From: the human T2T-CHM13v2.0 reference genome, Homo sapiens
DNA length: 64,000 nt
Reading direction: 5' to 3' (one strand)
NCBI RefSeq assembly: GCF_009914755.1
Contig: NC_060944.1
Numbering within the stretch: position 1 is the stretch's first letter; each line of letters opens with the position of its first letter. Below, in pieces: positions 10,781 to 34,084 of the stretch. The notes beneath the pieces were generated by a model. It made no database searches and was not told the origin of the DNA. It saw only the letters and a list, made by a program, of their open reading frames with translations. A program made the position numbers and the translations under genes.

Positions 10781-11314
10781 CTCCCATGAAAAAAAAAAAA
10801 AAAAAAAAGAAAGAAAGACAGCATAGTGGGAAAGGAATATGGATGGGATGGTCTCATCTCTATATAAAAAGTATGACCGTATTGGTGGTCTTTTGCACAC
10901 TCATTTATATAGTCACTGGGAAAAAAATTGAGAAAAACTCACACATGAGTTTCTATATGCCTCTGTGCTTTGTTTTCAACACCAAGCTGTGATAAATTTA
11001 ATTATTAAAACAAAACTTTGAAAAGAAATAACAATTTGGACAATGGGGACACTTAGCTGATGCAGCACAGGTGAGCAGTTCTTCTTTTGTGCCCAGGAAG
11101 ACACAATTCCCAGGAGCCCACCTGTGGTCTCCTAAGACAAGCATGCAGACTGCCCACAGGCTGCAGTTCCACCTTTCCTTTCCTGGACTCTTAGGAATAA
11201 ACAAGTTCTGAATTCAGCTGACCTGAGTTCAAATTCAGGCTCTCTGACTCACTGGGTAAGTCTCTTGCTCTCCTTGAGTCCCATATCCTCCTTGGAAAAA
11301 TGGAGGGGTAGAGT

Positions 11315-11704
11315 TGTTACGTTTTGAAGGCAAGGCGAGGGTTAAAGAAAGACAGAGAGAGACAGTTGGCGGCTTCAACAGCAACACTTTTATTGCCAAC
11401 AAAACCCTGAGGAGGGGTGAACCAGCTTAGTGCCAGCGCCAACTGCCACTCACAGGCTGAGGTAATCATGGGATGGGAGGGAGGGGTCTGGGTGGTAGAG
11501 CTTGCTGCCCAGCAGGAAACGGCAAGGATGTCCCTGCAGTCAGGCTGTTGGACCTTTGCCTGGGAGGATGCGATAAGGATGTTCCTGCAGTCATGTGGTT
11601 AGGAAGGATGTTTCTCACAGCCCGAGTTCCCATGGAATGTTTCACTGTGACCAGGGTCTGCAAAATGGCTGGGGGTTTACAAAATGGTACAGGTTAGGCT
11701 AACA
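11315..11704 (-). mobile_element. Solo ERVL LTR (LTR32-like), apparently inserted into a MIR
   Basis: TG...CA termini. Minus strand reads tgttagcctaacctgtaccattttgtaa...gcagaccctggtcacagtgaaacatt, with AATAAA at 11394-11389. Confidence 0.7.
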
Positions 11705-13886
11705 GTAACATCTCCCAGGTAAACAGTTCTTCAAAGTAAACTTCCCCTTAGCATTTACACTGTAGTAGTAGACATGGTGCCAGGACCCAGGCCACAGGAC
11801 GAACAGGACAGATGAGGCCCCTGCCATCCTAGTGTTCATGTCTGATGAAGGAAGCTAACAGGTCATAAGACCAAATCAGATGGTGGTGGTAATCAAAGAC
11901 ATTACCAGAGTGAGAAGAACTAGAAACAAACTGAGGAAGCTGTTCCAAACACAGTGAAAGGGAGAGACCCCTCGAAGAGGTGACTTTTGAGCAGAAACCT
12001 GAAAGATGTGGAGGAGGCAATGGAGAAGGACCAGCCCCTGGAGCCATCCCAGCAGTAAAGACCCAGCACCAGGTGGGCAATTGAATGTCCTGACCTGTGT
12101 GTCCTTCATGCTTCCTTCCTCAGTGGTGCACAAAGGGAAACATGGGGTAATTTCACGCAGGGTCCATGGAGGAATCAAGAAGCAGCTGCGCTGCAGAGCT
12201 GGGGTGGGGATGAAATCTGGCCCAACAGTGAAGCTAGAAGCAGGTGCATGAAGCATAACCAGCCCCTGAAGTCACATCCATGGCCAGACCAGCTGGCCGG
12301 GCTGCCAACATCTTAGTAGAGATCCCTGGAAATCAGATGAGCTGGTTAGGGGGGTAATAAAAAAGCTGGAAAGCTTCAGAAAATTCCAGAGGACACATGA
12401 CACTTAGCATGAACTTTCCCCGAGTGGGATCTGTTTGGCATTGCTGGTTCTAAAGAGTCGGTACCACCACTCCCACCTGCCCATTACCCCACCAGGGAAA
12501 CACTCAGGGTACAGTCCACAGAAACAATCCCTGTGGAATTGAAAAGGGTGTTTCTCATCCCAAACCAAGGGAGGGGACCCAGAAAACCACTCATAAAGAG
12601 CAGAGGGGCCTGCTGGGAGAGACAGGGTTCTGCTGCTCATTTGGGTATCTGCTTCCCAGCGGGAAAGGGGACCATGCAGGATAGAGCGGCTAAGGGGAAC
12701 CTGGGCTGTCGGGCCAGGAGAGCCGGTGCTGACTCACTGTTGGAGGTGAGCCACAATAGGAGGCTTAGAAACCCTCCCGGCAGCCTCTCCAGTCTAATAA
12801 GGGGATGGTAGTGTTGGTCAGTAGGGGCATCCAGACGCAGTCAAAGGGCAAGAGAGTGATGTCTCCTCTGGCCTCCCCTTTCAGCTGCAGATTCTCCCTA
12901 TGAGTTCCTGAGAAAGCTTCTCTATGGCTCCACAAGACTGGGGGGTGGTGACAGTTCCCAGATGACCCTAACCCCAGGGCCTTGTGCCATCCCTCCTCGT
13001 TCCCCCTGACCCTGCCCACGCCGTTGTAAACAGCTCCTTCTTAATGGCCCGTCAGCTGATGAGAGTTTCCTGCCAGCACCTGACTGCCACACTGCTTTGC
13101 CAAAGGGACCAGGCTCCTCGGCACAGGAGCTGAGGTTCTACAGGCACAGAGAAAACACTGTCTGAACGTTGGAATGGAGTCGGGAGCGGAAAAAAGAATG
13201 TTTGTTCTCAATGCTTACACTTACCAATTGTTTCCTTTTATCACATGAAGACTGTGTGTCATTTTGAAGTAGAATTAGTAATCTACATAATTACAAATTA
13301 TGTTCTTAAAATAAACTGCTCAGTGCCATGCTTGACACAAGGTGGAACTCCATTATGAGATGTGTGAGAAACCAGGGTGCCATGGTTACAGACAAGGACA
13401 CTAGGTGCAGACTGCTTGCTTCAAACCTGGACAAGCAGTACGAATTTTGGCAACTCTCTTGTATTGCTCTTTGCCCCAGTTTTTTTCACCTAAAAACTAA
13501 AAGTAAAAACAAGGTTATTGTGAAAATTAAATGAATTAAAGTAAGCAAAGTACCTACAACAACACCCCGAGGCACAGTCAGCCCTGAGCATGTTTTTCAT
13601 TATTACTCTTAATGAGGTAAGAATGAGAACACAGGCACCAACCATGAGCCTCTGGCACAGGCATCAGAGACCAAATTTTTAACAGCCTCCATTCATTCAT
13701 TTGACCCTGATAAGAGAGAAGTCTCATGCCAGAGGAGCAAGCATCCACCTTGGGACCAGACAGCCTATGGTCAAAGTTGAACTCCACCACTGTTCAGCTG
13801 TGTGACTTTGGGCAAGTGACTTTCCCTCTCTGATCCTCAGCACAATCACAGGTCTATGAGGATTGTAGGAGCTGACTGAAAAATGT

Positions 13887-14360
13887 GTGTCTTAGTTTGA
13901 GTTTCCTGGAAGTAGATCCAGAGGAAAAGATTCAGATACAAAAATTTTGTTTGGAGATGACTCTCGGACAGTAATTCTACTGCCAGTTCTTCCTTAGGGT
14001 GGTAATCCCAGGAAACACCAGAAGAGGAGTGGGGAACTGAGACAGGAAAGGAATGCAGCAGTTAAAGGGACCTTCATCAGGAAAGTTTCCACTGTGGCAG
14101 CCAAGACTCAGCCCTGCCAGGTACTTCTGAGAGACAGCACAGAACATGTATCTCAGAGTCATCCCACCAAAAGCAAGGGAGCTGGGATATTTATCCACCA
14201 ATACCCACCAGTCACTCCTCAGGGCTCCTTCCAAAGACATGATTCCTCCTGAACGCCCTGCCTGCACTGCAAGGGTTAGACCTTGGGTTGAGGGCAGGGG
14301 AGCTGACAACACCTCCAGCAATGAGCAGGAACACAGGCTGGTGTGGACTGTTTCAGTCAC
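13887..14360 (-). mobile_element. LTR16-like ERVL LTR, preceded by MIR fragments (13400-13880)
   Basis: tgtgtcttagtttgagtttcctggaag...ggtaatcccaggaaacaccag...ggggaactgagacagg motif set. Confidence 0.55.
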
Positions 14361-14948
14361 TCAGTGACTCCAACACACACACACACACACCCCACACTCC
14401 AACACCAATACAGGGCATATGTACATACACATACATGCATACATGACTGTTACCTGCTTCAATCCTGGTGAATCCATGGGATCGATGATAAGGTGGGAAT
14501 CAGAGGGAAGAGCAAAATAAAGGGGAGTGAAGGTCTTAGGAACAAAATGCAAATATAGGCAGAAAATCAAGGGGGAAGAGGAGTGGTCTGGACACCAAAT
14601 GCTGGCTGGGTGCCACCTGCTCTACATTCACTGTCAGGCATTCCCCAAGCAGCTTTGTGAGGTAGAAGAAATTCCCCTCAATTTACAGGTGGCAGAAATG
14701 TAGTTCAGAAAAGAAAACTGATTTTATTAATGTCTTACAGAGTTAGTGGGTGATAGATATGTTTCTGTCCACAAAGCCTACAAATTTTCCTCATTATGCA
14801 GGCTGGGTACCAGGCCTTGCTTCTGGGCTCTGCTACTTTTCCTGCTAGGCAATCATGGCAGAATTGACAAAAACATTTTCCCCCTTCACCACCTGGAGCA
14901 GAGCCAATGAGAAGGGCTGGAGAACAGGCCATGAGGCCCTGCACTCAC

Positions 14949-15767
14949 CATTCAATGTCTTCAGGACTGTGGTCCCTCAGGACTCTTGCACCATGTTCTA
15001 GCAGCACTCCTGGTGTCTGGGGGTCTTGTGAGGTTGTACAGGATCCAGTAGAGGCCACTGGCTGTGCTGTCATATTCTAAAGGTGGCCAGGCAGGTTTGT
15101 GTCTCTTGGCTGCTTCAGTACCAGAGGATGGAGAGTGCCAACGCAGTGAGGCCCTCGGTAGAATGGGAGGAGGGAAGGAAAGGGCAGAATGGAGTGATGT
15201 AGGGTCCATCCACCATGTCCCTGGATGGAGAGACCCCTGTTCTCATAGTAGCCCCACACCAGGACCACCACTGGCATTCATGAACAGGCCAGCCTCCATT
15301 TACACGTCCTCATCTGACAACTCCTTCCCATTTTCATCCTGGAGACAAGACCTCTGAACACACTAGCTCTGAGGGCACCTGATTGTAACCTGAGACAGTC
15401 TCTGGAGACTGTTCATCCAAGCAGGATCCCTCCCTTGCCATCTCCAGACCTCCCCCACAAGCTCCCTCCCTGGTCTGCTCTTGTTCACTCATTCCAGTCA
15501 GCCTTCTACAGTCATCTCTAACACGTATCTGACTGGCCCCTCCTTTATCCAGCACCTTCCATGGCTCCCCAAAGCACTCCAGATCAAGTTCAAGTTCTTT
15601 GATCGGACAGTTGATCTCAAGCTGCATTCTACCTCCTGAATTAAGATCCCGGAGAAGCCCACTTGCTCAGGATGATGGTGTCTGAAGTTGTGCACCAAGT
15701 CACAGGCCTTGTAGAAGCATCACCCCTCAGGAATGGGTACACTGGCGGCAATATAGTCACTGGATTC
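14949..15767 (-). pseudogene. CYP4F29P: CYP4F fragment pseudogene: three exons with introns (CYP4F29P/CYP4F35P-type). Symbol is a best guess among paralogs
   Basis: Exon 15767-15663 (SDYIAA..CFYKACDLVHNF..LSK, two internal deletions). Exon 15338-15272 (DENGKELSDEDV*MEA.LFM, 67 bp). Exon 15076-14949 (YDSTASGLYWILYNL...EDIEW, I-helix). All are AG/GT-bounded and carry stops or frameshifts. Confidence 0.9.
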
Positions 15768-15919
15768 CTGCAGGGTGAGGCTGGGGAGAGGAAGTAGCTC
15801 CATAACACATATGAAACCCTGGAAACCCTTCCCAGCAAAAATCTCAGGACCACGTTACATGCAGAAATGGGTGCCCTCTGAGCACACTTCTCTCTGCCTC
15901 CCACTCTGAGCTCCCTCCA

Positions 15920-18490
15920 GGCCCCACATGCCCCATCCTGGACCAGGGCTTGGAGCCCAGCAGGTGTTCAGTCCATGGTATTGACTGCTTCCTGGGCCAG
16001 GAGAGCCCTTGGTGGCTCTGTGACTCCTCCTGTGGAACCCCTGACTCTGCCTTGGGACCTCCCAATTCCCGTGGGAAGCCCCCATGGCTATGGATTGCCA
16101 CACCTGCCCTGGGATCCTCCAACCCCATAAGACTTACTTAATGCCTTAGCCCTCCTAGAATATGACGTGTTTCTCAGAAGGTGACTTATCTCCAGGGCCA
16201 TCTCTGGATGTTTGCTGGGGACCTCTTACTGTTCTCCTTTCTGATCTGCAGGGCAGGGCCCAGAGGAGAAAGCAGCCCAACCGCAGAATGAACAAAGGGC
16301 TCACTGCCACAAACAACAAGCACCAGTCAGCAGTGCTTCTGGAAGGAAAGGAGGTTTCATTCTGCAGAAAGCTCCTTGTTTGGCTTCTTTCTGAAGCCAG
16401 GAAGGGGTACTAAGCCCAGCTTACCTGTGGTGCCTACGTTACCATCTGTGCCTAGGATGTGCAATGGGCCCCTGCTCCCACTGCAGGGTTGACGTTCCCT
16501 CCAGCTGGAGACCTGGTCTCCTGACATCGCCTGGCCTGTTTGTCCTGCTCTGGATGAGCGTGGAAAGTCTGTACCTGGTATTTTCCTAGGTCCTTGGTTT
16601 ACACCTTCTAGATATCCAGCAGGATTGACCTTGCCCAGCCCCATACCTGAAAGGGGTCTCCCTTGAGGAGCAGCCGAGGACCGGGACTCCCCTCCCACGA
16701 TTCAAAGAGTGGATGAGTGCTCAGCGTCGGGAAATCTGATCTAGACCTATTTTTTCATTTAGGTCACCAAGAGACAACCCCTAACCCCTGAGCTAGGGAT
16801 GGTGCCAGCTCTGGCATGAGATTCTCTTCCAGCAATGTGATGCTTGCAGGGACAGGCCGAAACCTGGTGACCAGGTCTGCTGTCCTCTGGGTAAGGACAG
16901 TGTGCTACTCAACCTCAGAGAGACAGGTGGTGCCAGGACACAGCACTGGGTGCCTGTACCCCTGGCTCTGCAGATATCAGTCATGGAGTTCCTGCCCTCT
17001 CCACATTACCTTCTTGCTGCTCCTAGATTTCTTCTAGTCATTAAGCACTTCCAGTCATTTTTCTGTGCATCCAATCTGACATTTTTGTTGTCAGATGAAA
17101 CACAATAAAGTAAGCTGAGCCACCAGGATTCCTGGAGGGGACCTTGGATGCTGGGTCTTGGGCTCCAGGGCCCTGATGGGACTGAATCAGAAGTAGCCAG
17201 GGAAGGATAAACACTGGGGCTGAGCCCCTATGACACAATGGCCATTGTTGGCCTGGCCTTATGGCCCCAAGACACACTGTCCTCAGGCCACAGGCACCAT
17301 GGGTTTTGGTCAGGTCCCAGCCTCCCAATAGTGTCCTGGCACTAGCAGGTGCTGACCCCTGAGCCACAACCACAGTTCTGGGTTTGGGATTTAGTAAAAC
17401 CACCTCAGGGGCAGAGTTCTGGGGCTGGGTTTGGCAGGAACTATGGTGACTCCCAGGGATGGTGTGTCACTTCTACTTGCCACCAAATGTGCACATAGGC
17501 TGTCCCCCAAGACCAGCCCATCCTACTGGACAGAATGGAGGAAGTCAGGGAACAGGCAGAGTGGACAGCTGGGGTGCAGGCAGAGGCAGGTGCATGCTGG
17601 GAGGTCAGGCCCTGTGAGGGCTGCGGGGATGTCAGGTGGAGTGGATTCCAGGTGCACCCTCAGTGCACTCAGCAGGTCTCAGTCCAGGCCCTCTGGGCCA
17701 TGGCTGGGTGATGTGGTCACTCCCTGGGGTACTACTGTCAGACCCTGGCCACCCACCCTGGGAAGCACCGTCCCATCCCAGGACTGGACTTTCTGAGTCC
17801 TGAGACAGGACAGTGCTGTCCAGGCCTGACAGACTGGGAGAACCTGCCAAGTCCTCCATCCCTAGAACAGCCTCCCACACAGCAAGGACAATCTCTTACC
17901 TTCACCTTCAGGGCACTAACTGATCCTTCTCACTCTGAGGCAACAAAGGCAGAGCTGAGGACCTGCACCAGGCTGGGAGCCAGTCCCCTCCCTAAGTGGG
18001 CCTGAGGGAAGCACCATCCCTGTCCCAATCCGCCACTAGTTTCCACCCAGGAGACACATAGGGAAGGGAGGAGGGGGCCTACCAGCTGGCTGATACTGGA
18101 AAAGTGGGACCTGGGAGAAGAGGGAGTGCAGGGCTGGCAGGGGATGCTCCAGGCCCATGGAGAGCTCGGGCTGCACCATGGTGCTGCCCCTCCTGGGCTG
18201 GAGGCTGTGCCCTCTGCAGGAACTGAGAAAGTCCAATCCTGAGATGGGACAACACTGCCCAGGGTGGTTGGCCAGGGCCTGACAGTAGTCCCCCAGGGAG
18301 TGACCACATCACCTGGCTGGGGTCCAGGGAGCCTGGGGTGAGACCTACCCAGTGCACTGAGAGTGCACCTGGAGCCCACCTCACCTGATGCCCCCACAGC
18401 CCTAACAGGGTCTGACCTCCCAGCATGCACCTGCCTCTCCCTGAACCCCAACTGCCCACCCTGCCTGTTACCTGGCCTCCTCCATCCTGT
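15920..18490 (-). pseudogene. TBC1D3/USP6/TBC1D26-family gene remnant (four exons with introns)
   Basis: Exons 17932-17900 (..SALKVK|gtaag), 17087-17010 (CTEK*LEVLND*KKSRSSKK|gtaat), 16666-16575 (KGDPFQVWGWARSILLDI*KV*TKDLGKYQ|gtac) and 16245-16138 (IRKENSKRSPANIQR...|gtaagt). They parallel recalled TBC1D26/TBC1D3 peptides ([62 protein letters not shown]). Introns are also collinear with recalled TBC1D3 introns. Confidence 0.8.
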
Positions 18491-18491
18491 G
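17529..18491. repeat. ~275-bp inverted repeat (17529-17803 vs 18217-18491)
   Basis: Arms are reverse complements. ORFs 17431+ and 17930- give the same peptide (GNRQ.GQLG.R.RQVHAGRS.PVRA...QDWTF). Confidence 0.9.
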
Positions 18492-18699
18492 CAGCCCATA
18501 GACTGTGACCATCTCTCCAGCCACTCTGGCCCTTCCTTTACCGTTGTCCTCTCAGAATCTCTGAGCAGGATCTCCCAGGTCCATCCAAACACATGCTTTG
18601 TCCACTTTTGACTGGGCCCTTGGGTACCACTGGGCTACCCCAGCTGTCCACAGGGCCTTCAATAATGCACATTGCACCTGGCTTATCCAAGCAGTGCTC

Positions 18700-19612
18700 A
18701 GTAGCCCACATTGACCAGGTCCCTGCTGACCAGACCCTGCAAATCAGGTCCTCCCTGACAACACCCTCACTGATTAGACCCTCATGACCAGACCCCACTA
18801 ACAAGGCCCCCACTGCCAGGCACACAATGACAAGGACTCCACTGACCAGGACCTTACTGACAAGGCCTCACTGACAAGGCCTCAAGGACCAAGTCCTTAC
18901 TGACAAGTCCTCACTGACTAGGTCATTATTGACAAGGCCTCACTGATCAGGTTCCACTGATCATGACCTCATTCCCTGGCCCCAAAGATGAGGCCCCACT
19001 GACCAGGCCTCCAGGGAACAGGTTGCCACTGATCAGGCCGCTACTAACCAGGCCTAAGGTCACCAGATGCCCCTGACTGGGACCCTAGTGAGTAGACCCC
19101 ACTGAACAGGCATGTAATGCTCAGATCCCTGCTGACCAGGTCACCCTGTAGACCAGTGCTACAAAAGTCACCACTGACAAAGTCCTCTCTGACCAGGACC
19201 CTACTGATTAGGTCCTACTGACAAGGCTGCCCTGACCAGGGACCCACCGACAAGGGCCTCACTGATGAGGACACGCCCACCAGGCTCTGCTGACTGGGTC
19301 CCATGTGCCCAGTCCTCCACTGAATAGCACCCCTTGACCTGGTCACCAGTGCCCCAGCCCATGCTGACCAGGCCAGCACTAAGTCCCAGATGACCAGGTC
19401 TCCACTGATCAAGCCCCACAGCCCAGGTTTGCACTGACCAGACACCAAACATCTGGCAGCCAATAGGTCCCCACTCACCAAAACCCCTAAAACTTGATCC
19501 CACTAATAAGACCCTCTCTAAGCAGACCCCTGCTGACCACGATCCCACTAAATAGGCCTCACTGACCTACCACTGACCAGGCCCACAATGATCAGGCTCC
19601 TCCTAACCACAC
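18700..19612. repeat. Degenerate ~18-20-bp CCCCACTGACCAGG tandem repeat, block 1
   Basis: Dozens of ccactgacca/cactgatcagg/cactgacaagg units. Confidence 0.9.
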
Positions 19613-19619
19613 CGGAAAT

Positions 19620-20753
19620 CCAAGCGGCAATGATATGTTTCATATGGCAGAAGTTGGAGCAAGACAGAGAGAGGAAAGAGGTTCCACAGCCTTTTAAACT
19701 ACTAGATCTCATGAGAACTCACTCACTATCAGGAGGATGGCATTAAGGTCTTGGTGCTTTACCATTTGTGAAGGATCTACTCCCACCCCTTTATGATTAA
19801 AGCTTTCTCCACCTAGGCCCCGACTCTAACATTAGGGAGTGTATTTTCACATGAGTTTTGGAAGGGGCATAGAGAAAAACCGTATTATTCTGTCCCTGAC
19901 ACCACAAATCTCATGTCCTTCTCACATTGCAAAATACAGTCATGCCTTGCCAGCAGTCTCCCAAAGTCTTAACTCGTTTCAGCATTAACTCAAAGTTACA
20001 AAGTACAAAGTCTCATCTGGGTCAAGGCTACATTCTCTTTTTCCTACGAGTCTCTGAAATAAAAAGCAAGTTCACTGCGTCTAAAGTAAAATGATGGTAC
20101 AGGCATTGTGTAAGCTTTCCATATCCAAAAGGAAGACATTTTCCAGAAATCTTCTTATTTTTATCTAGGCCCCCTCAGCCTGGCCTTCACTGTCCATGTT
20201 TCTGTCAGCATTCTTGTCACAACCATTTAACCAGTCTCTAAGATGGCCCAAAAATGTTCTCATCTGTCTGTCTTCTTTTGAGCCTTCCAAACTCTTCCAA
20301 CCGCTAACCATTACCCAGTTCCGAAGCCGCTTCCACATTTTTAGGTATCTTTATAGCAAAGCTCCAGTCCTCATTTGTCATTTTTGGTATGATTTATTTT
20401 GAAAAAGAGGTTTAATTGGCTCATGGTTCTGCAGGGTGGACAGGAAGCACAGTGCTTCTGCTTCTGGGGGGTCTCAGAAATCTTTCAATCATTGCACAAT
20501 GCAATGAAAGAGCAAATTGTCTCACAATGCAAGAGGAAATCATGGAGAGTAGGGAGTGATATAGAGTTTTTAGTGGCCAGATCTCACGAGGTCACTCATG
20601 ATTGTGATGAGGACAGTACCAAGGGGATGGTGCTGAACCATTCATGAGAAGTTTGCCTTCATGATTCAATCACCTTATACCAGGATCCACCTCCAACATT
20701 AGGAAATATAACACAACATGAGATGTGGTGGGGACACATATTCAAATTGCATC
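19620..20753 (-). mobile_element. MSTA/MSTB-type MaLR element: LTR - deleted internal region - LTR
   Basis: gatctcatgagaactcact, caaatctcatgtccttctcacattgcaaaatac and aaagaggtttaattggctcatggttctgcagg motifs. Confidence 0.85.
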
Positions 20754-20754
20754 A

Positions 20755-21906
20755 TCAGTCTTTGAGTATAAAGACATCCACAGCAGGCTTTATCCAGCCA
20801 GCTTCTTTGAGACTTTTTATAGGACTTGAGGTCTATAGCATATCCACTAAAATATTCCTACTTCAAAAGGCAATAAAGTAAGTGGTATTATCATTCTTCA
20901 AAAAGTTACCATGGTAGTGTAGGCATTCATAGTATGACTTAGTTCATTTGCTGCTGTTTCTATTCTATCACCATATTAACACTATCCTACACAATTCTAT
21001 ATTCAGCTGGGTTTCACTTGAGCACAAAATCATCCTTGTACTACCACCGATAGCTGGCACTAGCTCTTTGATACTGTTATCATTCTGCTGTAGAAAGTAC
21101 CTGTGAACTGGAAAAAGTTCACAATCGAATAACTAGTTATTCAACACTATCAAATTTTAGGTGACTTTTTGAAAAAATAGTATCTCTTGTTGCAAGAAAT
21201 GCTCCATCTGTGATTTCAAGTCTCTCACTTGAGTGAATTGGATGGAAGTGGTGAATTTCAGCCAAAGTGGCCAAAGAAATCCTGTTCCTGTGATAATGAC
21301 ACCATCAGCCTCTGTACCTCTGTCTTCCCTTCTGCCACATGTTGCCTGTTGTCCGTGACTTTGGTAAGAGCTTCCTTGTGTACGAGGATGATGTCCAGGA
21401 TGTTGGTCTGGTGTCCCTGAGACAGCACTAACAGGTCCATGCCTGGGTCCAGGTCCTTCCTGGACTGATTGGCAAAGAGCTCACTGATGTTCTTGAAGGC
21501 ATCTCTGCTTAAGTGGATGGCCTAGTCAAGCTCCAAGGCCTGGCTGAGGCTGAAGAAAAACTGGCCGCCTTCTGAAGCTCTTTCTAAAAGCCTGTCACTG
21601 TCATCTGCTTGCATGTCAACTCATTGGCTGTGAGGTTGAGCTGAGTGGCCTGTGTCCATCTTCTTGGGGAAGCATTTAAAGCCATCAATCTTGCTCTCCC
21701 ACCCCTAAAGGTTGATGGTCCCCACCTGGGGGTGTGCTGAGGGTCAGAAAGAAGCCAGCACTCACCATCTCATCCTTCTCAGCCTTCCTCTTGCACTCTC
21801 TCCAGGCTGTCTCTTCAGTGCTGGTGGGATACATCAGAAAGTGATGGAAGATGTGGCACTGTGCCCACACCCAGAAGCTGGCCATGTGGTTGGCTCATCC
21901 ACCAGA
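20755..21906 (-). pseudogene. SNX18P: SNX18 processed pseudogene, copy A (end of PX, BAR domain, part of 3'UTR)
   Basis: [36 protein letters not shown]; MDLLVLSQGHQTNILDIILVHKEALTKV..; LAEIHHFH..FFQKVT match SNX18. No intron at the VQKG|ALTK junction. Many indels and stops. Confidence 0.9.
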
Positions 21907-24494
21907 ATGGACGCTCTGGTTGCTCTTTGAGCCAGCTTGGCCTTGACTGGCATGCACAGGCCCCAGGTATAGATACGTTGCTCTGAGTGAACTTCTCCTG
22001 CCTTGGGCCAAATTCTGTCAGGCCAGTCCCACGGGTGGTAATCCTGGCTGTTTTCTGCACTTCAACATAAAGACCTCCTGAAGATGGCCTGTGGTCTGCC
22101 TCTTTGCAACCAAGAAGCCCGCAGTGCCATATGAGCCCTGAGGCATGGACTGGAGCCCCTGAGGCAGCACACACCCTGCTCCTGAGCCTGCTGCTCAATT
22201 TCTCTGTGTGGCTCCATTTGTGTCACAGTTGTTGCACTGACTTGTGCATGCCGGGGAAGGCCAAGCTGGCTCAAAAAGCAACCGACCACCTCTGCAAGGG
22301 TGTGCCTGGAGCTGGTGGACCAGCCACCAACCTGACTTGCTGCCGGTCGGGGTACATCAGTTCTTCTACCCTACAGGTAGGGCCACAGTGTTATCTGCTT
22401 TTCCTCAGGCCTCTGCTCCATCAGCCATCAGGAGGCAGCCCCTCAGGCTATAGGAATCTGGCCATCCCTGCTTCCTTGAGTGGGTGAGGTTGGTGGCTGC
22501 TCCACCTGCTCCAGGCACACCCTTGCAGAGGTGGCTGATTCCTCTTTGAGCCAGCTTGGCCTTGCCTGGCATGCACAGGCCCCAGCTACCTATATGCTGT
22601 TCCAAGTCAGCTTGTACTGTGTTGGGCCAAATTCTACCTCTGGCCAGGGCCACAGAAGGCCGAGTCCCCTGGGTGCTAATCCTGGCTGCTTTCTGCACTT
22701 GAACATAAAGTCTTCCTCAAGACCGCCTGTGGTCTGCCTCTTGGCGACCAAGAAGCCTACAGTGCCATACAAGCCCTGAGGCATGAACTGGAGCCACAAA
22801 GGCAGTGCACGCCCCATTCCTGAGCCTGCTGATCATTTCCTCTTTATGGCTCCATTTGTAGTACACTTGTTGCAGTGAGGCTTGTGCATGGCAGGCAAGG
22901 CCAAGCTGGCTCAAAGAGCAACCAGCCACCTCTGCAAGAATGTGCCAGGAGCAGATGGACCAGATGCCAACCTCACTCACTGTCAGGAGTGGTACATCAG
23001 TTCTTCTACCCTAAAGGTGGGGCCGAGAGGCAGACCACAGGCCGTCTTGAGGAGGACTTTATGTTCAAGTGCAGAAAGTAGGCAGGATTACCACCCAGGG
23101 GACTCAGCCTTCTGTGGCCCGCAGTGCCATATGAACCCCGAGGCATGGACCGGTGCCATCTGCTTTATACAAAAATTAACTTAAGATAGATTAAAGAGTT
23201 AAACATGCCACCTGCTTTTCCTCAGGCCTCTGCTCCATCAGCCATCAGGAGGCAGCCACTCAGGCTGTGGAAACCTGGCCATCCTGGCTTCCTTCAGTGG
23301 GTGAGGTTGGTGGCTTGTCCACCTGATCCAGGCACACCCTTGCAGAGGTGGCTGATTCCTCTTTAAGCCAGCTTGGCCTTGCCTCTCATGCACAGGCCCC
23401 ACCTACTGACACACTGCTCTGAGTGAGCTTGTCCTGCCTTGGGCCAAATTCTCTCAGGCCAGGGCCACAGAAGGCCGAGTCCCCTGGGTGCTAATCCTGG
23501 CTGCTTTCTGCACTTGAACATAAAGTCTTCCTCAAGACGGCCTGTGGTCTGCCTCTTGGCAACCAAGAAGCCTGCAGTGCCATAGGAGCCCTGAGGCATG
23601 GACTGGAACCCCAAAGGCAGTGCACACCCTGCTCCTGACCCTCCTGCTCCTTTCCTATATATGGCTCCATTTGTAGAACGGTTGTTTCACCGAGGCTTGT
23701 GCATTCCAGGCAAGGCCAAGCTGGCTCAAAGAGCAACCAGCCACCCCTGCAGGGGTGTGCCAGGAGCAGGTGGGCCAGTCACCAACCTCACATGCTGCCA
23801 GTCAGGGTACATCAGTTCTTCTGCCCTAGAGTTAGGGCCACAGTGCCATCTGCTTTTCCTCAGGACTCTGCTCCATCAGTCATAAGGTGGCAGCCACTCA
23901 TGCTGTTGGAACCTGGCCATCTGGGCTTCCTTGAGTGGGTGAGGTTGGTGGCTCCTCCACCTTCTCCAGGCACACCCTTGCAGAGGTGGCTGGTTGCTCT
24001 TTGAGCCAGCTTGGCCTTGACTGGCATGCACAGGCCCCAGGTACTGACACGTTGCTCTGAGTGAGCTTGTCCTGCCTTGGACCAAACTCTGTCAGGCCAG
24101 GGTCACAAAAGGCCGAGTCCCACGGGTGGTAATCCTGGCTGCTTTCTGCACATAAAGACCTCCTGAAGATGGCCTGTGGTCTGCCTCTTTGCAACCAAGA
24201 AGCCCGCAGTGCCATATGAGCCCTGAGGTATGGACTGGAGCCCCCAAGGCAGCGCACACCCTGCTCCTGAGCCTGCTGCTCATTTTCTCTGTGTGGCTCC
24301 ATTTGTGTCACAGTTGTTGCACTGACTTGTGCATGCCGGGCAAAGCCAAGCTGGCTCAAAAAGCAACCAGCTGCGTTTGCAAGGGAGTGCCTGGAGTGAC
24401 TGGACTAGCCATCAACTTCGCCCACTCAAGGAAGCAGGGAAAACGTGTTTGTACCATGCATTTCACTACAGGTGCATTTCCCCTGAGGTTGGTG
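21907..24494. repeat. Irregular tandem array of ~0.65-0.8-kb units, each with a ~95-bp inverted repeat and a short SNX18 PX fragment
   Basis: Arm pairs 22242-22336/22484-22578, 22879-22976/23301-23398 and 23693-23790/23939-24035. KRQTTGRLEEDF (SNX18 KQATGRFEEDF) recurs, once inverted (~23025-23078). Confidence 0.85.
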
Positions 24495-26110
24495 GCCTAG
24501 GTTTCTTCTAGATTTTTTTATGGTTTTAGGTCTTACGTTTAACTCTTTCATCCATGTTACTTAATTTTTGTTTAAGGTGTATGGGTGTGGCCCAGTTTCA
24601 GTTTTCTGCATAAGGCTAGCCAGTTTTCCCAAGATCATTTATTAAATAGGGTATCCTTTACCCATTGCTTGTTTTTGTCAGGTTTGTCAAAGATCAGATG
24701 GTTTTAGATGTGTGGTGTCATTTCTGAGGCCTCTGTTCTGTTCCACTGGTCTATAGATCTGATTTAGTACCAGCCCCGTGCTGTTTTGATTACTGTAGGC
24801 TTGTAGAATAATTTGAAGTCAGGTACTGTGATGCCTCTAGCTTTGTTGTTTTTGCTTAGGATTGTCTTGGCTATGTGGGCTCTTTTTTGGTTCCATATGA
24901 AATTTAAAGTAGTTTTTCTAATTCTATGAAGAAAGTCAATGGTAGCTTGATGAGGATAGCAATGAATCTGTAAATCACTTTGGGTGGTATAGCACTCAGG
25001 CACAGGAATCTCCTTGTGTTAGGCAATATCATTCAGGACAGAGCCATGGGCAGAGACTTCATCACTAGAACACAAAAAGCAATGGCAACAAAAGCCAAAA
25101 TTGACAAATGGGATCTAACTAAACTAAACAGTATCTGCAGTGCAAAAGAAACTATTATCAGAGTGAACAGGCAACCCACAGAATGGGAGAAAATTGTTGC
25201 AATCTATCCATCTGACAAAGGGCTAATATGCAGAATCTACAAAGAACAAATTTACAAGAAAAAAAACAAACAACCCCATCAAAAAGTGGACAAAGGATAT
25301 GAATAGACACTTACCAAAGAAGACATTTATACAGCCAATGAACATGTGAAGCAAAGCACATCATCACTGGTTATTAGAGAAATGGAAATCAAAACCACAG
25401 TGAGATACAATCTCACACCACTTAGAAAGGCCATTGTTAAAAAATCAGGAAACAACAGATGCTGGACAGGGTGTGGAGAAATAGGAACACTTTTACACAG
25501 TTTGTGGGAATATAAATTAGTTCAACCATTGTGGAAGACAGTGTGACAATTCGTCAAGGATCTACAGCTAGAAATATCATTTGACCCAGCAATCCCATTA
25601 CTGGGTATATACACCCAAAATTATAAATCATTCTAATATAAAGACACATGCACCTGTCTGTTTATGGCGGCACTGTTCACAACACCAAAGACTTGGAACC
25701 AACCAAAATGCCCACCAATGATAGACTGAATAAAGAAAATGTGGCATATATACACCATGGAATACTATGCAGCCATAAACAAGGATGAATTCACGTCCTT
25801 TGCTGGGACATGAATGAAGCTGGAAAGCATCATTCTCAGCAAACTAACACAAGAACAGAAAACCAAACACCACATGTTCTCATTCATAACTGGGAGTAGA
25901 ACAATGGGAACACATGGACTCAGGAAGGGGAACATCACACACCAGGGCCTGTCAGGGTGGGGGGCTAGGAGAGGGACGGCATTAGGAGAAATAACTAATG
26001 TAGATCATGGGTTGATGGATGCAGCAAGCCACCATGGCATGTGTATACCTATGTAACAAACCTGCATGTCTGCACATGTACCCCAGAACTTAAAGTATAA
26101 TTAAAAAAAA
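24495..26110 (+). mobile_element. 5'-truncated L1PA with an inverted 5' segment (24495-24993 minus; 25020-26110 plus, A tail)
   Basis: The two pieces are contiguous in L1 ORF2 at ...agaaacctaggc / taggcaatatcattcagg. 3'UTR ends cagaacttaaagtataattaaaaaa. Confidence 0.9.
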
Positions 26111-26114
26111 AAGA

Positions 26115-27110
26115 AATTTGCTTTTAATTAAGCTTTTAATCATAGAACTTGTAAAGAAAATCCTTTCGAATCTTTTACTACCACATCATAGCTGGGACAA
26201 ACTGCTGACGTTCTAAAAGTAACACAAATATCAAACAGAAAGAACTAGACTTAGGAATCAAACTCAGGTTACTGTAGTGAACAGGGCAGAATCTTCACAT
26301 TAGGTCACCACCAGTACTCCTTCACTTTGGCCTTGGCTAGCAAAAGAATGGCCTTTTTATGTAGATGAGACCACTTACGTAAAAAAAAAGTTTTAAAAAA
26401 TAATTTCTGCTAACTGGAATGTTTTTTGTTGTTGTTTATTTGTTTGTTTTTTTGCAGCCATAGGAGTTTTAGCCAATTCAGAGGCCTTGCTCCCCACAAT
26501 TTGGAACATTCCTTTGAATTTGACCAAGTCAGGAAGAGATGGGAGAAAAGTGAAACAACAATAATAAAACCCCAAGCATAAACAAACAAAAAGAGTTAAG
26601 CAAAACAACAAATGCACAATTCATATGATTACTGAGTGTTCTAATGGTAAGGAGAAATTAAAAGCAGCTGGTGAGTAATCTTAAATTTTAGTCATTAAGG
26701 AAAAATTTTAAGACAAAACTCTAATTCAGCTACTTACCTGGAAATAAGGCTCAGGCTGGTGATCGTTCTCTGCCATATTAGAAGCTGGAAAAAACTTACA
26801 CTCACCTTCCCTGTCAGAAGCAAGCTGAAACTCAGGAAAGGAGGTGCCTGCTCTCCATCATCGTGGAAGCAGGAAAACTTGCCTTCCTTGTTGGAAATGA
26901 GTAAAACTTCAGAAAAGGAGTTGTACAGCAAAATCAAACTTAGATCTCAACTAGATTTTGGGAGATCAGGGACCCTCTGCAGGGGAGAAACTCCACAACC
27001 TCAGCAAATTATCCTGTTGATTTGGGCAATAAAGATAGCCCAGGTTGGTATCAAGCAATAATGAGATTTATCAAAGGTCAGGGACATCTTTGTAATGTCC
27101 TTCTCTGTCT
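26115..27110. mobile_element. ERV1 (MER4-group) internal-region fragment
   Basis: ttagccaattcagaggccttgctccccacaatttggaacattcctttgaatttgaccaagtcagg resembles MER4-group internal sequence; no LTR seen. Confidence 0.5.
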
Positions 27111-27114
27111 TTTT

Positions 27115-30100
27115 TAATCTTTATTGGTATATACGTTTTGTCAAAACTAGGAGGGCAACACCTGCTTTTTTCTGTTTTCCATTTGCTTGAAAGATTTTTC
27201 TCCATTCCTTTATTTTGAGCCTATGTATGGCACTGCATGTGAGATGGGTTTCTTGGAGATGGCATACTCAAATTGGTCTTGGTTCTTTATCCAGCTTGCC
27301 CCCCTGTGTCTTTCAATCGGAGCATTTAGCCCATTTCCATTTAAGGTTAGTAATGGTATGTGTGGATTGGATCTTGTCGTCATGCTGTCAGCTGGTTATT
27401 TTGCAGACTTGTGTATGTGGTTGGTTTTTAGCATCACTGTTCTGTGTACTTCGGTGCATTTTTGTAGTGGCTGGTGATGGTCTTTTCTTTCCATATTTAG
27501 TGCTTCATTCAGGAGCTCTTGTAAGGTAGATCTGGTGATAATGAATTCTCTCAGCATTTGCTTGTCTGGAAAGGATCTTGTTTCTCCTTCACTTATGATG
27601 CTTAATTTTGCTGGACATGAAGTTCTGGGTTGAAATTTCTTGTCTTTTTTTTTTAACCATTTAACTCTCTAGCTCTCATTTTAACCATTTTAACTCTCTA
27701 GCTGCCTTTAACATTGTTTCTCTCATTTTGACCTTGGAGAATCTGATGATTATATGTTTTGGGGATGATCTTCTCATGGCATATCTTACTGCGGTCCTCT
27801 GGATTTCCTAAATTTGAATGTTGGCCTGTCTGGCTAGGTTGGGGACATTCTCATGAAAGATATTCTGAAGTACGTTTTCCAAGCTGGTTCCATTCTCCTC
27901 ATCTCTTTCAGATACATTAATCAGTCATAGGTTTGGTCGTTTATATAATCCCATATTTCTTGGATGCTTTGTTCATTCCTTTTCCTTCTTTTTTCCCCCA
28001 TTCTTGTCTGCCTGTTTTATTTCAGAAAGCCAGTTTTCAAGCTCTGGGATTCTTTCCTCTGTTTGGTCTATTCTGCTGGGTGGTCTTGCACATGAGATGG
28101 AGCTGGTCTGACCTCAGCCCTCCTTAGTCTGCTTGCCTCTCCCAGGACCCCAGCCTGGCCACACCTGCTTACAGGGCAATCTCGGGTGCCCACACACACT
28201 ACAATAATTTTCATAATGCAATCACACATAATCACCATGTGACTCCATTATGAAAATTCTTATAGTGTGCTTTTCAGCTCTATTAGGTCGGTTACGTCTT
28301 CTTTATACTTGCTATTTTGTCTGTTAGCTCCTGCAATGTTTTAAAATGATTTTTAGCTCGCTTGTATTGCATGACAACATACTTCTTTCACTCAGTGAAC
28401 TTTGTTCCTACGCATATCCTGAACACTGCTTGTATCATTCCAGACATCTCAGCCTCAGCCCAGTTCAGAACACTTGCTGGAGAGTTGATGCAGTCATTTG
28501 GAGGAAGGAAGGCATGCTACTTTTTGAGTTTTCAGTGTTCTCACACAGATTCTTTCTCATCTTTATGGGCTTATCCACCTTCCATCTTTGAGGTTGCTGA
28601 CCTTTGGACAGGGTATTTTTCTTTTATTGTATTTGATGATCTTGAGGGTTTCATTGCGGTATAAGGTGGATTCAACCAACTGGCTTTGTTTTTGGAGGAT
28701 TTTGGGGGGGCCAATGTGCAGCTCCCAATTCCTGGACTGTTTGCTTTAACTCTGGGGAACTTGTCTTGGGCCCCAACTTTGTTCTCTGGCTCCTCGAGGT
28801 TTGGAGTCCACTGCTCTGTGGGGACCGAAGTGTAGCAACTGTGACGGAATGCTAGTGGATGCAAAATTCCCTGCCTCCCTGCGGGTGTTCACCCAGTGGT
28901 GGAGACAAGACAGCTGGGGTGTGGGCCAGGGCTCCCCTGCTGTGTGTGTGTTGTGCTGGAGGTAATGTTCGTTCAGAGTGAGCTGCTGGCCAGTGCAGAC
29001 CATGGTGCCTTCTCTGTGCCCCTCAAAGCAACAGTGGTCGCTCAGGGTATAAGAAGGTCCCTTTTTCTCTGCACAGCATTAGCTCAACGGTGAGGTGCTG
29101 GCAGGGGTGGGGTTCTTGGTTCTGTGCCCACCAAGGCTCTGTCTTCAATGGCAGTTGGTGTGGGTTGGTGTGTGTGCTGCACTCCCATGTGCTCTCAGGG
29201 CAAGTACAGCAAAACCCACCTGTGTAAACACACACAGCAAAGTGATGTAGGAAGTTTCCATATAAAGGGCTGCAGTATGGAGAGGTAATCTGCAGACTGG
29301 TGTGTGGCTGTTGGGGCCACCTTGCTGCAGCTCTCCACTGATCAGGTATGGTCCACTAGCACGGAAGCTATGCTGTGGGCATCCGAAAGTGCCCTGTAAG
29401 CAGGTGTGGCCAGGCTGGGGTCCTGGGAGAGGCAAGCAGACTAAGGAGTGCTGAGATCAGACCAGCCCCATCTCATGGGCAAGACTGCCCAGCAGAGATC
29501 AGGTCTCAGAGGAGAACTCTCTCAAAAGTGAACCCCCAGCACAGCATAGCTGCTTTACACAAACATGGGCAGGCTTCTTTTTTAAGCAAGTCCCCTTTTT
29601 TAAGAGAGGAACTCTGGGACCTGATCTCTGCTGGGCAATCTTGAACATGAGATGGGGCTGATCTGAGCTTAGCATTCCTAAAGTGCTGGGATGAAGTGTC
29701 TCACAAGGGCAAGTGGAACCTAGAGAGATAGCTGTCCCTGTCCTCTGGGCTCCACATCACCTGACTTGCTGCTCCACCACTCTGCTTTTCTCCTGGGTGC
29801 TCCATCCCAGAGAGATGTGAGTTAGTGTAATCAGCCCAGGATGGAGGGTCTGTGTTGTGAGCCCAAGCCAGGGTTCCCTCTCTGGTGATGAGCAGTGTGG
29901 GGTGTGTGGTACCCGTGGGAGATGGACTGGCTTGTTCGTTGGGTCAACTGCAGCTTATTGGAGGTGTCGATATGGCACTTAGGGTCTTTGCTCCCTTGAT
30001 ATTCTGAGGGTAGCAAGGGCAGTTCCACTGCAGAGACAGTGGCAGAGAGAATTTCATTTGCTCCTGGAAGCTCTGTCCAGGGAATTGCTGAGTTGCTACT

Positions 30101-31075: not shown

Positions 31076-31448
31076 ATCTATTCTCTCAGAGTTCATCTTG
31101 TTTGATGGAGCTTAATTTTTAGCCTGTTAATTTTACTGTCTACATTAGACTTGTTCGGAAAGAATCTGTTATATTTTAGGTTAGATATATGAGAATTCAT
31201 TGTTTTCTGTAAATAAACCTGTTCATGTCTTGTTCTCTGGAAAGAAATCTCTTTCAACTATCTGACTTTGGTCACAATCATGTAGAGCAGTAGCCAGTCT
31301 ACAGTGACATAATTGAATTTCCATTTCCAGTGTTTCGTTTTTGTGTCTTACATTTTACAGTTCAGAATTGCGCATTTTATTCCCAATTGTCAAAATGCTA
31401 AGCTGTCCACTGTACTGAAATAGTTTTTGTTAATTCTTCGTCATTCAA

Positions 31449-31849: not shown

Positions 31850-31855
31850 AACAGC

Positions 31856-34078: not shown

Positions 34079-34084
34079 TCAGAA

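What the first reader, a model, noticed from the sequence alone, without database searches (positions are those of the whole stretch)
14949..17932. TBC1D3/TBC1D26-family x CYP4F chimeric gene remnant with a surviving splice chain
Seen: four TBC-like exons and their introns continue on the same strand, through an intron-to-intron junction at ~15900-15920, into three CYP4F exons. GT donors survive at all seven exons. AG acceptors survive at 17932, 16245, 15767, 15338 and 15076; the 17087 acceptor is mutated to AA and the 16666 acceptor is deleted. Known: TBC1D3 is a hominoid core duplicon and USP6 is a TBC1D3-USP32 fusion. Inference: this is an independent, older TBC-led fusion, and loci labelled only as CYP4F pseudogenes are really TBC-CYP4F chimeras. 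All frames are broken, so any product would be non-coding. I cannot confirm that this is undescribed.
Basis: partly seen in the sequence, partly recalled or inferred. Interest (0 to 1): 0.8.

Follow-up and report, generated by a model that had tools for sequence, protein, structure and literature searches.

The report
Dead TBC–CYP4F mosaic pseudogene duplicon
This stretch of human chromosome 20 is one old copy of a much-duplicated piece of DNA in which a fragment of a TBC-family gene was joined once to a fragment of a CYP4F gene; it is a neutrally decaying, non-coding relic that is annotated as a long non-coding RNA.

Summary
On the minus strand, window 18617-15920 is colinear with TBC1D3/26/28-family loci on C17 and carries four exon remnants. 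Window 15935-14770 is colinear with the CYP4F cluster on C19 and carries three. The junction is refined to about 15915-15935.

The junction formed once and is shared by 16 other loci on C2, C8, C9, C13, C18 and C21. By divergence it is older than, and independent of, the USP6-type TBC fusion. It does not look like a "TBC-led" gene:
- Both halves are internal gene fragments. There is no TBC 5' end and no p450 3' end.
- All 17 copies share frameshifts.
- Exons drift as fast as introns, 0.123 against 0.117.
- Splice-site survival is not above neutral expectation (P = 0.11 and 0.18).

RefSeq's predicted lncRNA already splices the TBC exon-D donor to an AG 13 nt upstream of the first CYP4F exon's acceptor. 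Six searches of the held paper library found no description of the junction. This is an ordinary mosaic duplicon of modest interest.

The parts
15920..18617 (-). Fragment of a TBC1D3/TBC1D26/TBC1D28-family gene: intron sequence plus four internal exon remnants, with no 5' exons or promoter.
   Evidence: Colinear blastn to C17:15643094-15645344 and C17:18.58 Mb at 69-75%. The parental locus scores Pfam RabGAP-TBC E = 1.2e-5. No C17 homology lies upstream of 18617.
17900..17932 (-). TBC exon A remnant. AG acceptor and GT donor are kept. It has a 7-bp deletion.
   Evidence: The 7-bp deletion is shared by 16 of 17 copies; C8 lacks it.
17010..17087 (-). TBC exon B remnant. The acceptor is AG>AA and the donor GT is kept.
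   Evidence: The C2:95.27 Mb copy also has AA; the other 15 copies have AG.
16575..16678 (-). TBC exon C remnant. The acceptor and first 4 nt are lost in a chr20-private deletion spanning 149 alignment columns. The donor GT is kept.
16138..16245 (-). TBC exon D remnant with AG and GT kept. Its donor is the one used by the RefSeq lncRNA model.
   Evidence: and the hub table. Two 1-bp deletions are shared by 17 of 17 copies.
15915..15935 (-). Intron-to-intron junction between the C17-type and C19-type sequence, in a short stretch of imperfect similarity between the two parental introns.
   Evidence: The junction is identical in all 17 copies.
14770..15935 (-). Fragment of a CYP4F gene: three consecutive mid-gene exons with their introns.
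   Evidence: blastn to C19:15701518-15702869 and C19:15748183-15749657 at 72-79%. The parental exons score Pfam p450 E = 2.3e-25, with profile positions 250-312 of 462 for the last two exons.
15663..15767 (-). CYP4F exon Y1 remnant, 105 nt against 271 in the parent. AG is kept. A GT is kept at 15662-15661. RefSeq uses a GT 30 nt further on (exon end 15633) and an AG 13 nt upstream (exon start 15780).
   Evidence: The large internal deletions are private to chr20. The upstream AG is GG in both C19 parents aligned at those columns.
15272..15338 (-). CYP4F exon Y2 remnant with AG and GT kept and one in-frame stop.
14949..15076 (-). CYP4F exon Y3 remnant with AG and GT kept. Its donor is used by the RefSeq lncRNA model.
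   Evidence: and the hub table.
11821..14390 (-). Second C19-derived piece, colinear with C19:15715175-15719536. That is about 12.3 kb beyond the first piece in C19. It is non-coding and carries the downstream lncRNA exons.
   Evidence: Pfam finds no p450 on the C19 counterpart. Hub table.
17526..17798 (.). Proximal arm of an inverted repeat. It is an inverted extra copy of the TBC-intron segment and is absent from the four C17 loci compared.
   Evidence: 273 nt, 84%; the C17 loci hold a single arm. It is present in the paralogues.
18222..18494 (.). Distal arm of the inverted repeat, at the orthologous position of the TBC intron. The annotated lncRNA start sites (18306-18366) lie inside it.
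   Evidence: and the hub table. The RNA 18366-17500 folds with z = -9.95.
11371..18366 (-). Predicted lncRNA LOC124908113. One model splices 16138 to 15780, 15633 to 15109, and 14949 to 13496.
   Evidence: Hub annotation table (RefSeq, predicted). The splice dinucleotides were verified.

Best explanation
Window 11821-18617 (minus strand) is one early-diverged copy of an old mosaic duplicon.

How it arose. The join is a breakpoint inside two introns, at a short stretch where the introns are similar.

What happened next. The product was already disabled in both halves when copying began. It was then copied to at least 16 other full-length loci and at least 22 truncated ones, and it has evolved neutrally since.

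What it does now. It encodes no protein. In the RefSeq model it is transcribed from a start inside TBC-intron-derived sequence. That transcript reuses two inherited splice donors (TBC exon D and CYP4F exon Y3) together with nearby cryptic sites, giving a chimeric non-coding RNA.

Shown: the homologies, the single shared junction, the shared lesions, the neutral rates, and the nesting of truncated copies inside the chimeric clade.

Inferred: the joining mechanism, the absolute age, and that the transcript has no sequence-specific function.
For: Two-parent structure and breakpoint:
- In one search, 14 C17 loci plus C1 and C6 match only up to query position 381, and 2 C19 loci match only from position 366.
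- In the same call, 16 loci match across the junction.
- Colinear maps are and base-level alignments.

Parental identities: Pfam p450 E = 2.3e-25 and RabGAP-TBC E = 1.2e-5.

Single origin:
- The junction is identical in 17 of 17 copies.
- The chimeric copies are monophyletic in both halves.

Dead before spreading: exon D (-1, -1) and Y1 (-2) are shared by 17 of 17 copies.

Neutral evolution:
- The exon p-distance is 0.1228 against 0.1166 for non-exon sequence among 7 representative copies.
- Splice dinucleotides are invariant at 8 of 14 sites, against 0.414 for random intron dinucleotides, P = 0.18.
- On the chr20 lineage 12 of 14 sites survive against 0.672 expected, P = 0.11.
- CpG observed/expected is 0.09.

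Fragments only:
- There is no C17 homology upstream of 18617.
- There is no p450 signal in the downstream C19 piece.

Truncated copies are derived: 5 of 5 sampled, plus the window's second copy, nest inside the chimeric clade.

The transcript model comes from the hub table.
Against: - Pfam sees no domain in the window's own read-through frames, so family identity rests on nucleotide homology to the parental loci.
- The RabGAP-TBC hit on the parent is only just above its cut-off (25.5 against 25.2 bits).
- The TBC exon D donor and the CYP4F Y1 acceptor are invariant in 17 of 17 copies.
- Their reading phases would have been compatible in the intact ancestors: 2 nt carried over plus 1 nt. That is what a real fusion transcript would need, although phase compatibility has a one-in-three chance.
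- Whole-genome searches scored only 40 of 100 candidates and 40 of 194, so those copy counts are lower bounds.
- Trees are FastTree only. Gene conversion between copies was not tested, and the exact position of the chr20 copy differs between the two halves.
- Transcription rests on a predicted RefSeq model. I saw no reads.
Confidence: 0.85

Rival explanations
1. The chimera began as a working, in-frame TBC-CYP4F fusion gene, comparable to USP6, and was pseudogenised only later. The splice chain is a leftover of that function.
For: - Both halves lie on the same strand.
- The exon D donor carries 2 nt of a codon and exon Y1 supplies 1 nt, so the native splice would have been in frame.
- The D donor and Y1 acceptor are invariant in 17 of 17 copies.
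Against: - The TBC fragment starts inside an intron, with no first exons or promoter.
- The p450 part lacks everything after the third exon.
- Frameshifts in both halves are shared by all 17 copies, so they predate the oldest duplication seen.
- There is no exon constraint.
- Phase compatibility has a prior of one in three.
Confidence: 0.05
2. The locus family is kept as a functional non-coding RNA. Selection would act on the splice architecture or on the long hairpin made by the inverted repeat, not on coding sequence.
For: - RefSeq models a spliced lncRNA here (hub table).
- The 5' part of the longest model folds into a long hairpin, z = -9.95 with 0 of 20 shuffles as stable.
- The inverted repeat is present in all 16 chimeric paralogues and in most truncated copies listed, and in 5 of 5 sampled.
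- Pseudogene names that I recall for the paralogues appear as expressed lncRNAs in many expression studies. I saw search listings and abstract starts only.
Against: - Splice sites are no more conserved than random intron dinucleotides (P = 0.18).
- The A, B, C and Y2 sites are lost in various copies.
- The arms are only 84% complementary.
- A hairpin follows automatically from any inverted duplication.
- There is no Rfam family in 11000-20000.
Confidence: 0.08
3. The two fragments arrived separately, as two independent duplicative transpositions that landed next to each other in a pericentromeric acceptor site. In that case no single rearrangement between a TBC gene and a CYP4F gene took place.
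For: - The TBC fragment is bounded by junctions on both sides (18617 and about 15920), which is typical of mosaic duplicon blocks.
- Both halves are about equally far from their nearest extant relatives, 0.35 and 0.29-0.33.
Against: This cannot be told apart from a direct TBC-CYP4F rearrangement with the present data. Both routes give one shared junction. The similarity of the two introns at the junction fits either route. This rival concerns the route, not what the element is now, and it is compatible with the best explanation.
Confidence: 0.3

Closest known systems
USP6 (Tre2), described as a hominoid fusion gene of TBC1D3 (passage seen in 10.1101/2024.03.12.584650; the USP32 partner is recalled)
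   Same: A TBC1D3-family 5' portion is joined on the same strand to part of an unrelated gene, and the join arose in duplicated DNA.
   Different: - USP6 keeps a promoter and an open frame and encodes a protein. Here the TBC part is an internal four-exon fragment without a 5' end, all frames are broken, and evolution is neutral.
- The TBC lineage differs and is much deeper: K2P 0.41-0.43 to the TBC1D3-like and C17:5.02 Mb loci, against 0.066 between those two.
- That C17:5.02 Mb is USP6 is inferred from its position and recalled, not tested.
Dispersed CYP4F pseudogene fragments outside 19p13 (HGNC names such as CYP4F29P, CYP4F35P, CYP4F26P; names and places recalled, and the names were seen in the paper listings)
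   Same: The same three mid-gene CYP4F exons lie on C2, C8, C9, C13, C18 and C21. The chr20 copy is a further member.
   Different: - The chr20 copy is annotated in the hub table only as an uncharacterised lncRNA.
- It is 87-89% identical to the others, it is one of the two deepest branches, and it has private deletions in exons C and Y1.
- No paper I searched mentions that all of these loci carry a TBC-family fragment upstream.
Mosaic pericentromeric duplicons built from gene fragments, such as the CHEK2 duplicon (PMC2566985; title and abstract start seen in the listing)
   Same: Internal gene fragments with introns are juxtaposed with unrelated fragments and copied between chromosomes. Secondary copies have new breakpoints.
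   Different: The divergence is larger than the 90% identity usually used to define segmental duplications (threshold quoted in that abstract). The chr20 copy is 87-89% identical to the others and the C8 copy 80-83%.
C17:15.64 Mb and C17:18.58 Mb TBC loci (TBC1D26 and TBC1D28 by position, recalled)
   Same: They are the nearest extant relatives of the TBC half, with the same four exons, the same introns and the same order.
   Different: They lie K2P 0.35 from the chimeric copies and only 0.014 from each other. The chimeric TBC half is a third lineage and does not derive from either.

Membership tests
RabGAP-TBC gene family (TBC1D3/26/28 branch), as a pseudogene fragment | Colinear homology of exons and introns to bona fide TBC loci | tested here: met
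   Window 18617-15920 against C17:15643094-15645344, in four colinear blocks at 69-75%.
RabGAP-TBC gene family (TBC1D3/26/28 branch), as a pseudogene fragment | Pfam PF00566 match | tested here: inconclusive
   The parental locus L025 scores E = 1.2e-5, 25.5 bits against a cut-off of 25.2, on an exon outside the fragment. The window's own three read-through frames give 0 families.
RabGAP-TBC gene family (TBC1D3/26/28 branch), as a pseudogene fragment | Open reading frame | tested here: not met
   There are non-3n indels and stops in exons A to D. It is therefore a pseudogene fragment and not a gene.
Cytochrome P450 family 4F, as a pseudogene fragment | Colinear homology to the C19 CYP4F cluster and a Pfam PF00067 match | tested here: met
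   Window 15935-14770 against two C19 loci at 72-79%. The parental exons score p450 E = 2.3e-25. The window's own frames give 0 families.
Cytochrome P450 family 4F, as a pseudogene fragment | Complete coding capacity, including the C-terminal haem-binding region | tested here: not met
   Only three mid-gene exons are present, at profile positions up to 312 of 462. The downstream C19-derived piece has no p450 signal. Frames are broken.
Fusion gene of the USP6 kind | A single junction joining two genes on one strand | tested here: met
Fusion gene of the USP6 kind | Promoter and start codon supplied by the 5' partner | tested here: not met
   C17 homology starts inside the intron upstream of exon A, and nothing lies further upstream within window 15000-34000.
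Fusion gene of the USP6 kind | Open frame across the junction and purifying selection | tested here: not met
   Frameshifts are shared by 17 of 17 copies, and exons drift at 0.123 against 0.117 for non-exon sequence. The ancestral phases were compatible.
Interchromosomal segmental duplication (duplicon) | Several copies on different chromosomes sharing the same boundaries | tested here: met
   There are 16 full copies on 6 chromosomes and at least 22 truncated ones. 4 of 4 sampled copies of the 17341 class end exactly at 17341.
Interchromosomal segmental duplication (duplicon) | At least 90% identity between copies (the usual operational threshold) | tested here: not met
   The chr20 copy is 85-89% identical to the others and the C8 copy 80-83%. 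Several of the other copies are nearly identical to one another (minimum K2P about 0).
Long non-coding RNA gene | Transcript evidence | not testable with these tools
   Only the predicted RefSeq models in the hub table are available. Their splice dinucleotides are present in the sequence.

The most novel reading that the evidence does not exclude
All the dispersed human 'CYP4F pseudogene' transcripts may in fact be one old family of TBC-fronted chimeric transcription units. On this reading the start site and a hairpin-forming inverted repeat come from a TBC-family intron, and the first splice donor is TBC exon D. The junction would date from before the catarrhine radiation and would originally have been in frame. 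That would make it a second, much older TBC-family fusion than USP6, which died and was then spread to about 40 sites.
Probability: 0.12. Interest if true: 0.5.

Novelty: new member of a known kind. Interest (0 to 1): 0.27.

Why it matters
The result mainly matters for annotation.
- A family of at least 17 loci on seven chromosomes has a composite origin. I recall the paralogues being named only after CYP4F, and on chr20 the locus is only an uncharacterised lncRNA. Transcripts from these loci begin in TBC-derived sequence.
- Expression studies that report these pseudogene lncRNAs (listing) are measuring chimeric, multi-copy RNAs that are hard to map.
- It adds a dated example of a gene-fragment mosaic that is older than the 90% identity window used for segmental-duplication maps.
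- It shows that a run of intact splice sites in a pseudogene needs a neutral baseline before it is read as meaningful.
- It does not open a new biological question.

Tried and rejected
- Pfam on short exon translations failed because one piece was under 20 residues and several frames were wrong.
- Pfam on the three whole read-through frames of window 14701-18600 found no family. I turned to the parental loci instead.
- I looked for further p450 exons in the second C19-derived piece and found none. The only match was a sub-threshold ArgoL2 hit, E = 0.0093, 16.6 bits against a cut-off of 33.3, which I take as chance.
- I looked for upstream TBC exons in window 15000-34000 against C17:15630000-15649999. 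There was only a weak 66% hit in a repeat region.
- I tested whether the C1:245.94 Mb or C6:29.39 Mb TBC-like fragments could be the source of the TBC half. They are 70-71% identical, and C1 groups with the TBC1D3 branch, so I rejected this.
- Rfam at gathering thresholds on 11000-20000 gave 0 matches.
- Six literature searches found no description of a TBC-CYP4F junction. The passages read in PMC1866355 and in the TBC1D3 preprint do not mention it.
A smaller request of 7 stretches was answered, so only 5 of at least 22 truncated copies were placed in the tree.
- I did not use protein homology searches, structure prediction or complex prediction, because the element has no open frame to test.
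Full report
**What is in the sequence**

I read window 14700-18600 on the minus strand and searched the window's own genome with three overlapping pieces.

With the 701-base piece spanning the proposed junction (window 16300-15600), all 35 first-look candidates were scored:
- 14 loci on C17, one on C1 and one on C6 match only query positions about 24-381. That is window 16277-15920.
- 2 loci in a C19 cluster match only from position 366. That is window 15935 downward.
- 16 loci match straight across both parts at 81-89% identity. They lie on C2 (5), C8 (1), C9 (7), C13, C18 and C21.

The two-parent structure and a shared breakpoint are therefore real.

**Identity of the parents**

I fetched the candidate parental loci and mapped them by blastn.
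- Window 18617-15920 is colinear in four blocks with C17:15643094-15645344, and equally with C17:18.58 Mb, at 69-75%. It matches a TBC1D3-cluster copy and the C17:5.02 Mb locus more weakly.
- Window 15935-14770 is colinear with C19:15701518-15702869 and C19:15748183-15749657 at 72-79%.
- Window 14390-11821 continues colinearly with C19:15715175-15719536, about 12.3 kb further on in C19.

Pfam results:
- On read-through frames (X at each stop) of the parental loci, Pfam gives p450 at E = 2.3e-25 for the C19 locus.
- It gives RabGAP-TBC at E = 1.2e-5 for the C17 locus, which is 25.5 bits against a cut-off of 25.2.
- The same scan on the window's own three frames finds nothing. The family assignment of the window therefore rests on nucleotide homology to these loci.
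- The second C19-derived piece shows no p450 signal. The element therefore carries three CYP4F exons and no more.

The gene names TBC1D26/28, TBC1D3, USP6 and CYP4F for these places are recalled from their positions. No call supplied them.

**Exons, splice sites and junction**

Base-level alignments and a splice table over all copies give these exon remnants:

| Exon | Window (minus strand) |
|---|---|
| TBC A | 17932-17900 |
| TBC B | 17087-17010 |
| TBC C | 16678-16575 |
| TBC D | 16245-16138 |
| CYP4F Y1 | 15767-15663 |
| CYP4F Y2 | 15338-15272 |
| CYP4F Y3 | 15076-14949 |

The boundaries are validated by the parents: their concatenated exons have exactly one open frame each.

In the chr20 copy:
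- All seven donor positions read GT.
- The acceptors of A, D, Y1, Y2 and Y3 read AG.
- The acceptor of B reads AA.
- The acceptor of C and the first 4 nt of that exon are removed by a deletion spanning 149 alignment columns. Only chr20 has it; the 16 other copies keep the AG.

Exon Y1 is much reduced on chr20, 105 nt against 271 in the parent, through private deletions. Its native donor survives only because a 1-bp loss leaves a GT in place.

The junction lies at about 15915-15935, inside a stretch where the two parental introns resemble each other. It is identical in all 17 copies.

**Is it a gene fusion?**

Five results say it is not one now, and was not one when it began to spread.
1. C17 homology begins at 18617 inside the intron upstream of exon A. 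Nothing further upstream in window 15000-34000 matches C17:15630000-15649999, apart from a weak hit in a repeat. No TBC promoter or first exons came along.
2. The p450 part lacks everything beyond the third exon.
3. Two 1-bp deletions in exon D and a 2-bp deletion in Y1 are shared by 17 of 17 copies. A 7-bp deletion in exon A is shared by 16 of 17. Both halves were therefore disabled before the oldest duplication that survives.
4. Among seven representative copies, exons differ by 0.1228 per site and non-exon sequence by 0.1166.
5. The splice chain is not better kept than chance.
 - Across copies, 8 of 14 native dinucleotides are invariant, against 0.414 for random adjacent intron columns (P = 0.18).
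 - On the chr20 lineage, 12 of 14 survive against a neutral survival of 0.672. That baseline comes from intron dinucleotides on which two parental lineages agree (P = 0.11).

Two points run the other way. The exon D donor and the Y1 acceptor are invariant in all 17 copies. In the intact ancestors their phases were compatible, with two bases carried over plus one. A once-coding fusion is therefore not strictly excluded, but phase compatibility alone has a one-in-three prior.

**History**
- Trees of each half, rooted with the parents, put all chimeric copies in one clade, with the C8 copy deepest. The chr20 copy is another early branch with a long private branch. Its exact position differs between the two halves.
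- K2P distances are 0.10-0.13 from chr20 to the others, 0.18 from C8 to the others, and a mean of 0.09 among the remaining 15 copies.
- The chimeric copies lie 0.35 from the C17:15.64/18.58 Mb loci, 0.41-0.43 from the TBC1D3-like and C17:5.02 Mb loci, and 0.29-0.33 from the nearest C19 loci.
- The TBC half is thus a third, deep lineage of the family. It does not derive from TBC1D3 or from the C17:15.64/18.58 pair. The C1:245.94 Mb fragment is not its source either.
- The C17:5.02 Mb locus and a TBC1D3-cluster copy differ by only 0.066. If that pair reflects the hominoid USP6 fusion (so described in the preprint passages), the TBC-CYP4F junction is roughly two to three times older. With recalled primate divergences this points to before the catarrhine radiation. 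That is inference from a clock, and gene conversion or faster local rates were not excluded.
- CpG observed/expected is 0.09, which fits long decay.

**Truncated copies**

One search scored 40 of 100 candidates. It lists at least 22 further loci that hold only the upstream part. Twelve of these end at query position 1357-1360, which is window about 17341-17344. One of the twelve lies in this same window at 31853-34191.

Of the five I could fetch, four end exactly at 17341 and one at 17023. All five, and the window's second copy, nest inside the chimeric clade. The chimeric form is therefore ancestral and these copies are later partial copies. The window's second copy groups with the C13/C18/C21 lineage, so it is a separate arrival and not a local duplicate.

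**What it does now**

The hub's RefSeq table models a lncRNA (LOC124908113) that starts at 18306-18366. One transcript has exons 18315-16138, 15780-15633, 15109-14949, 13496-12095 and 11668-11371.

Checked against the sequence, this model uses:
- The native TBC exon D donor.
- An AG 13 nt upstream of the Y1 acceptor. Both C19 parents aligned at those columns read GG there.
- A GT 30 nt beyond the Y1 donor.
- An AG 33 nt upstream of the Y3 acceptor.
- The native Y3 donor.

The models are predictions, and I could not see reads.

**Is it in print?**

Six full-text searches found no paper describing a TBC-CYP4F junction or the CYP4F fragments in pericentromeric duplications.
- (CYP4F, pericentromeric, duplication, pseudogene) returned 0 papers.
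- Papers holding both CYP4F and TBC1D3 looked like gene-list studies, judging from their titles and abstract starts.
- I read passages of PMC1866355 and of the TBC1D3 preprint. Neither mentions it.
- Subscription journals and many older Genome Research papers are outside the searched library. I opened no supplements, and genome annotation at the paralogues was not available. I therefore cannot say the junction is undescribed, only that I did not find it.

**Verdict**

It is an ordinary product of mosaic duplication: two internal gene fragments joined once, dead from the start of its spread, drifting neutrally, and annotated as a non-coding RNA that reuses some inherited splice sites. Interest is modest.

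Noticed in passing
window 17526-17798 and 18222-18494: An inverted repeat of 273 nt, 84% complementary, with 423 nt between the arms. The four C17 TBC loci compared hold only one arm, so the second arm is an inverted duplication that arose in the chimeric lineage. The annotated lncRNA start sites lie in the distal arm, and the RNA 18366-17500 folds into a long hairpin (z = -9.95, 0 of 20 shuffles as stable).
   Followed up: partly
window 31853-34191: A second, truncated copy of the upstream module (TBC exon A plus both repeat arms), 84% identical to 17344-19724 and in the same orientation. In the tree it groups with the C13/C18/C21 chimeric copies and the acrocentric, C1 and C4 truncated copies, not with the chr20 chimeric copy. 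It therefore arrived separately.
   Followed up: yes
window 17341: A sharp secondary breakpoint. 4 of 4 sampled truncated copies (C21:0.32, C22:10.55, C1:127.88 and C4:49.40 Mb) end exactly here, and one search lists 12 loci of this class. I did not examine what lies beyond the break in those copies.
   Followed up: partly
window 18709-19614: A minisatellite-like region of degenerate direct repeats (families of 83 and 45 nt at 60-72% identity, with spacings of 14, 15, 29 and 58). It lies immediately upstream of the end of TBC homology and matches C17:15639293-15639484 only weakly (66%).
   Followed up: no
window 21916-24419, and 53148-53763: Tandemly repeated units of roughly 630-1050 bp at 79-88% identity, with further copies near 53 kb.
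   Followed up: no
window 19777-20149 against 34645-48240: An element of about 340-370 bp recurs at nine or more places between 34.6 and 48.2 kb at 70-76% identity, which suggests a large diverged repeat array in that part of the window.
   Followed up: no
window 15781-15782 (minus strand AG): The acceptor used by the RefSeq model for exon 15780-15633 is AG in 12 of 17 chimeric copies and AA in five C9 copies. Both C19 CYP4F parents aligned at those columns read GG. It is a derived cryptic site, not an inherited one.
   Followed up: yes
L023 (C9:33.62 Mb copy): This paralogue carries an insertion of about 1.6 kb inside TBC exon B. Like C9:38.57 Mb, it is truncated after CYP4F exon Y1.
   Followed up: partly
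L029-L031 (C19:15702869-15715175): The two C19-derived pieces of the duplicon are separated by about 12.3 kb in C19. This could be a deletion in the duplicon lineage or a later insertion in C19. The downstream piece also matches C19:15681824-15682517 at 69%, so it may belong to the tandem unit of the C19 cluster.
   Followed up: no
L041 (C1:245.94 Mb) and L042 (C6:29.39 Mb): Two further dispersed TBC-family fragments, 70-71% identical to the window's TBC half. The C1 fragment groups with the TBC1D3 and C17:5.02 branch.
   Followed up: partly
window 14770-18617: Strong CpG depletion (observed/expected 0.09 at 55.7% G+C), with no CpG island at the annotated transcript start.
   Followed up: yes
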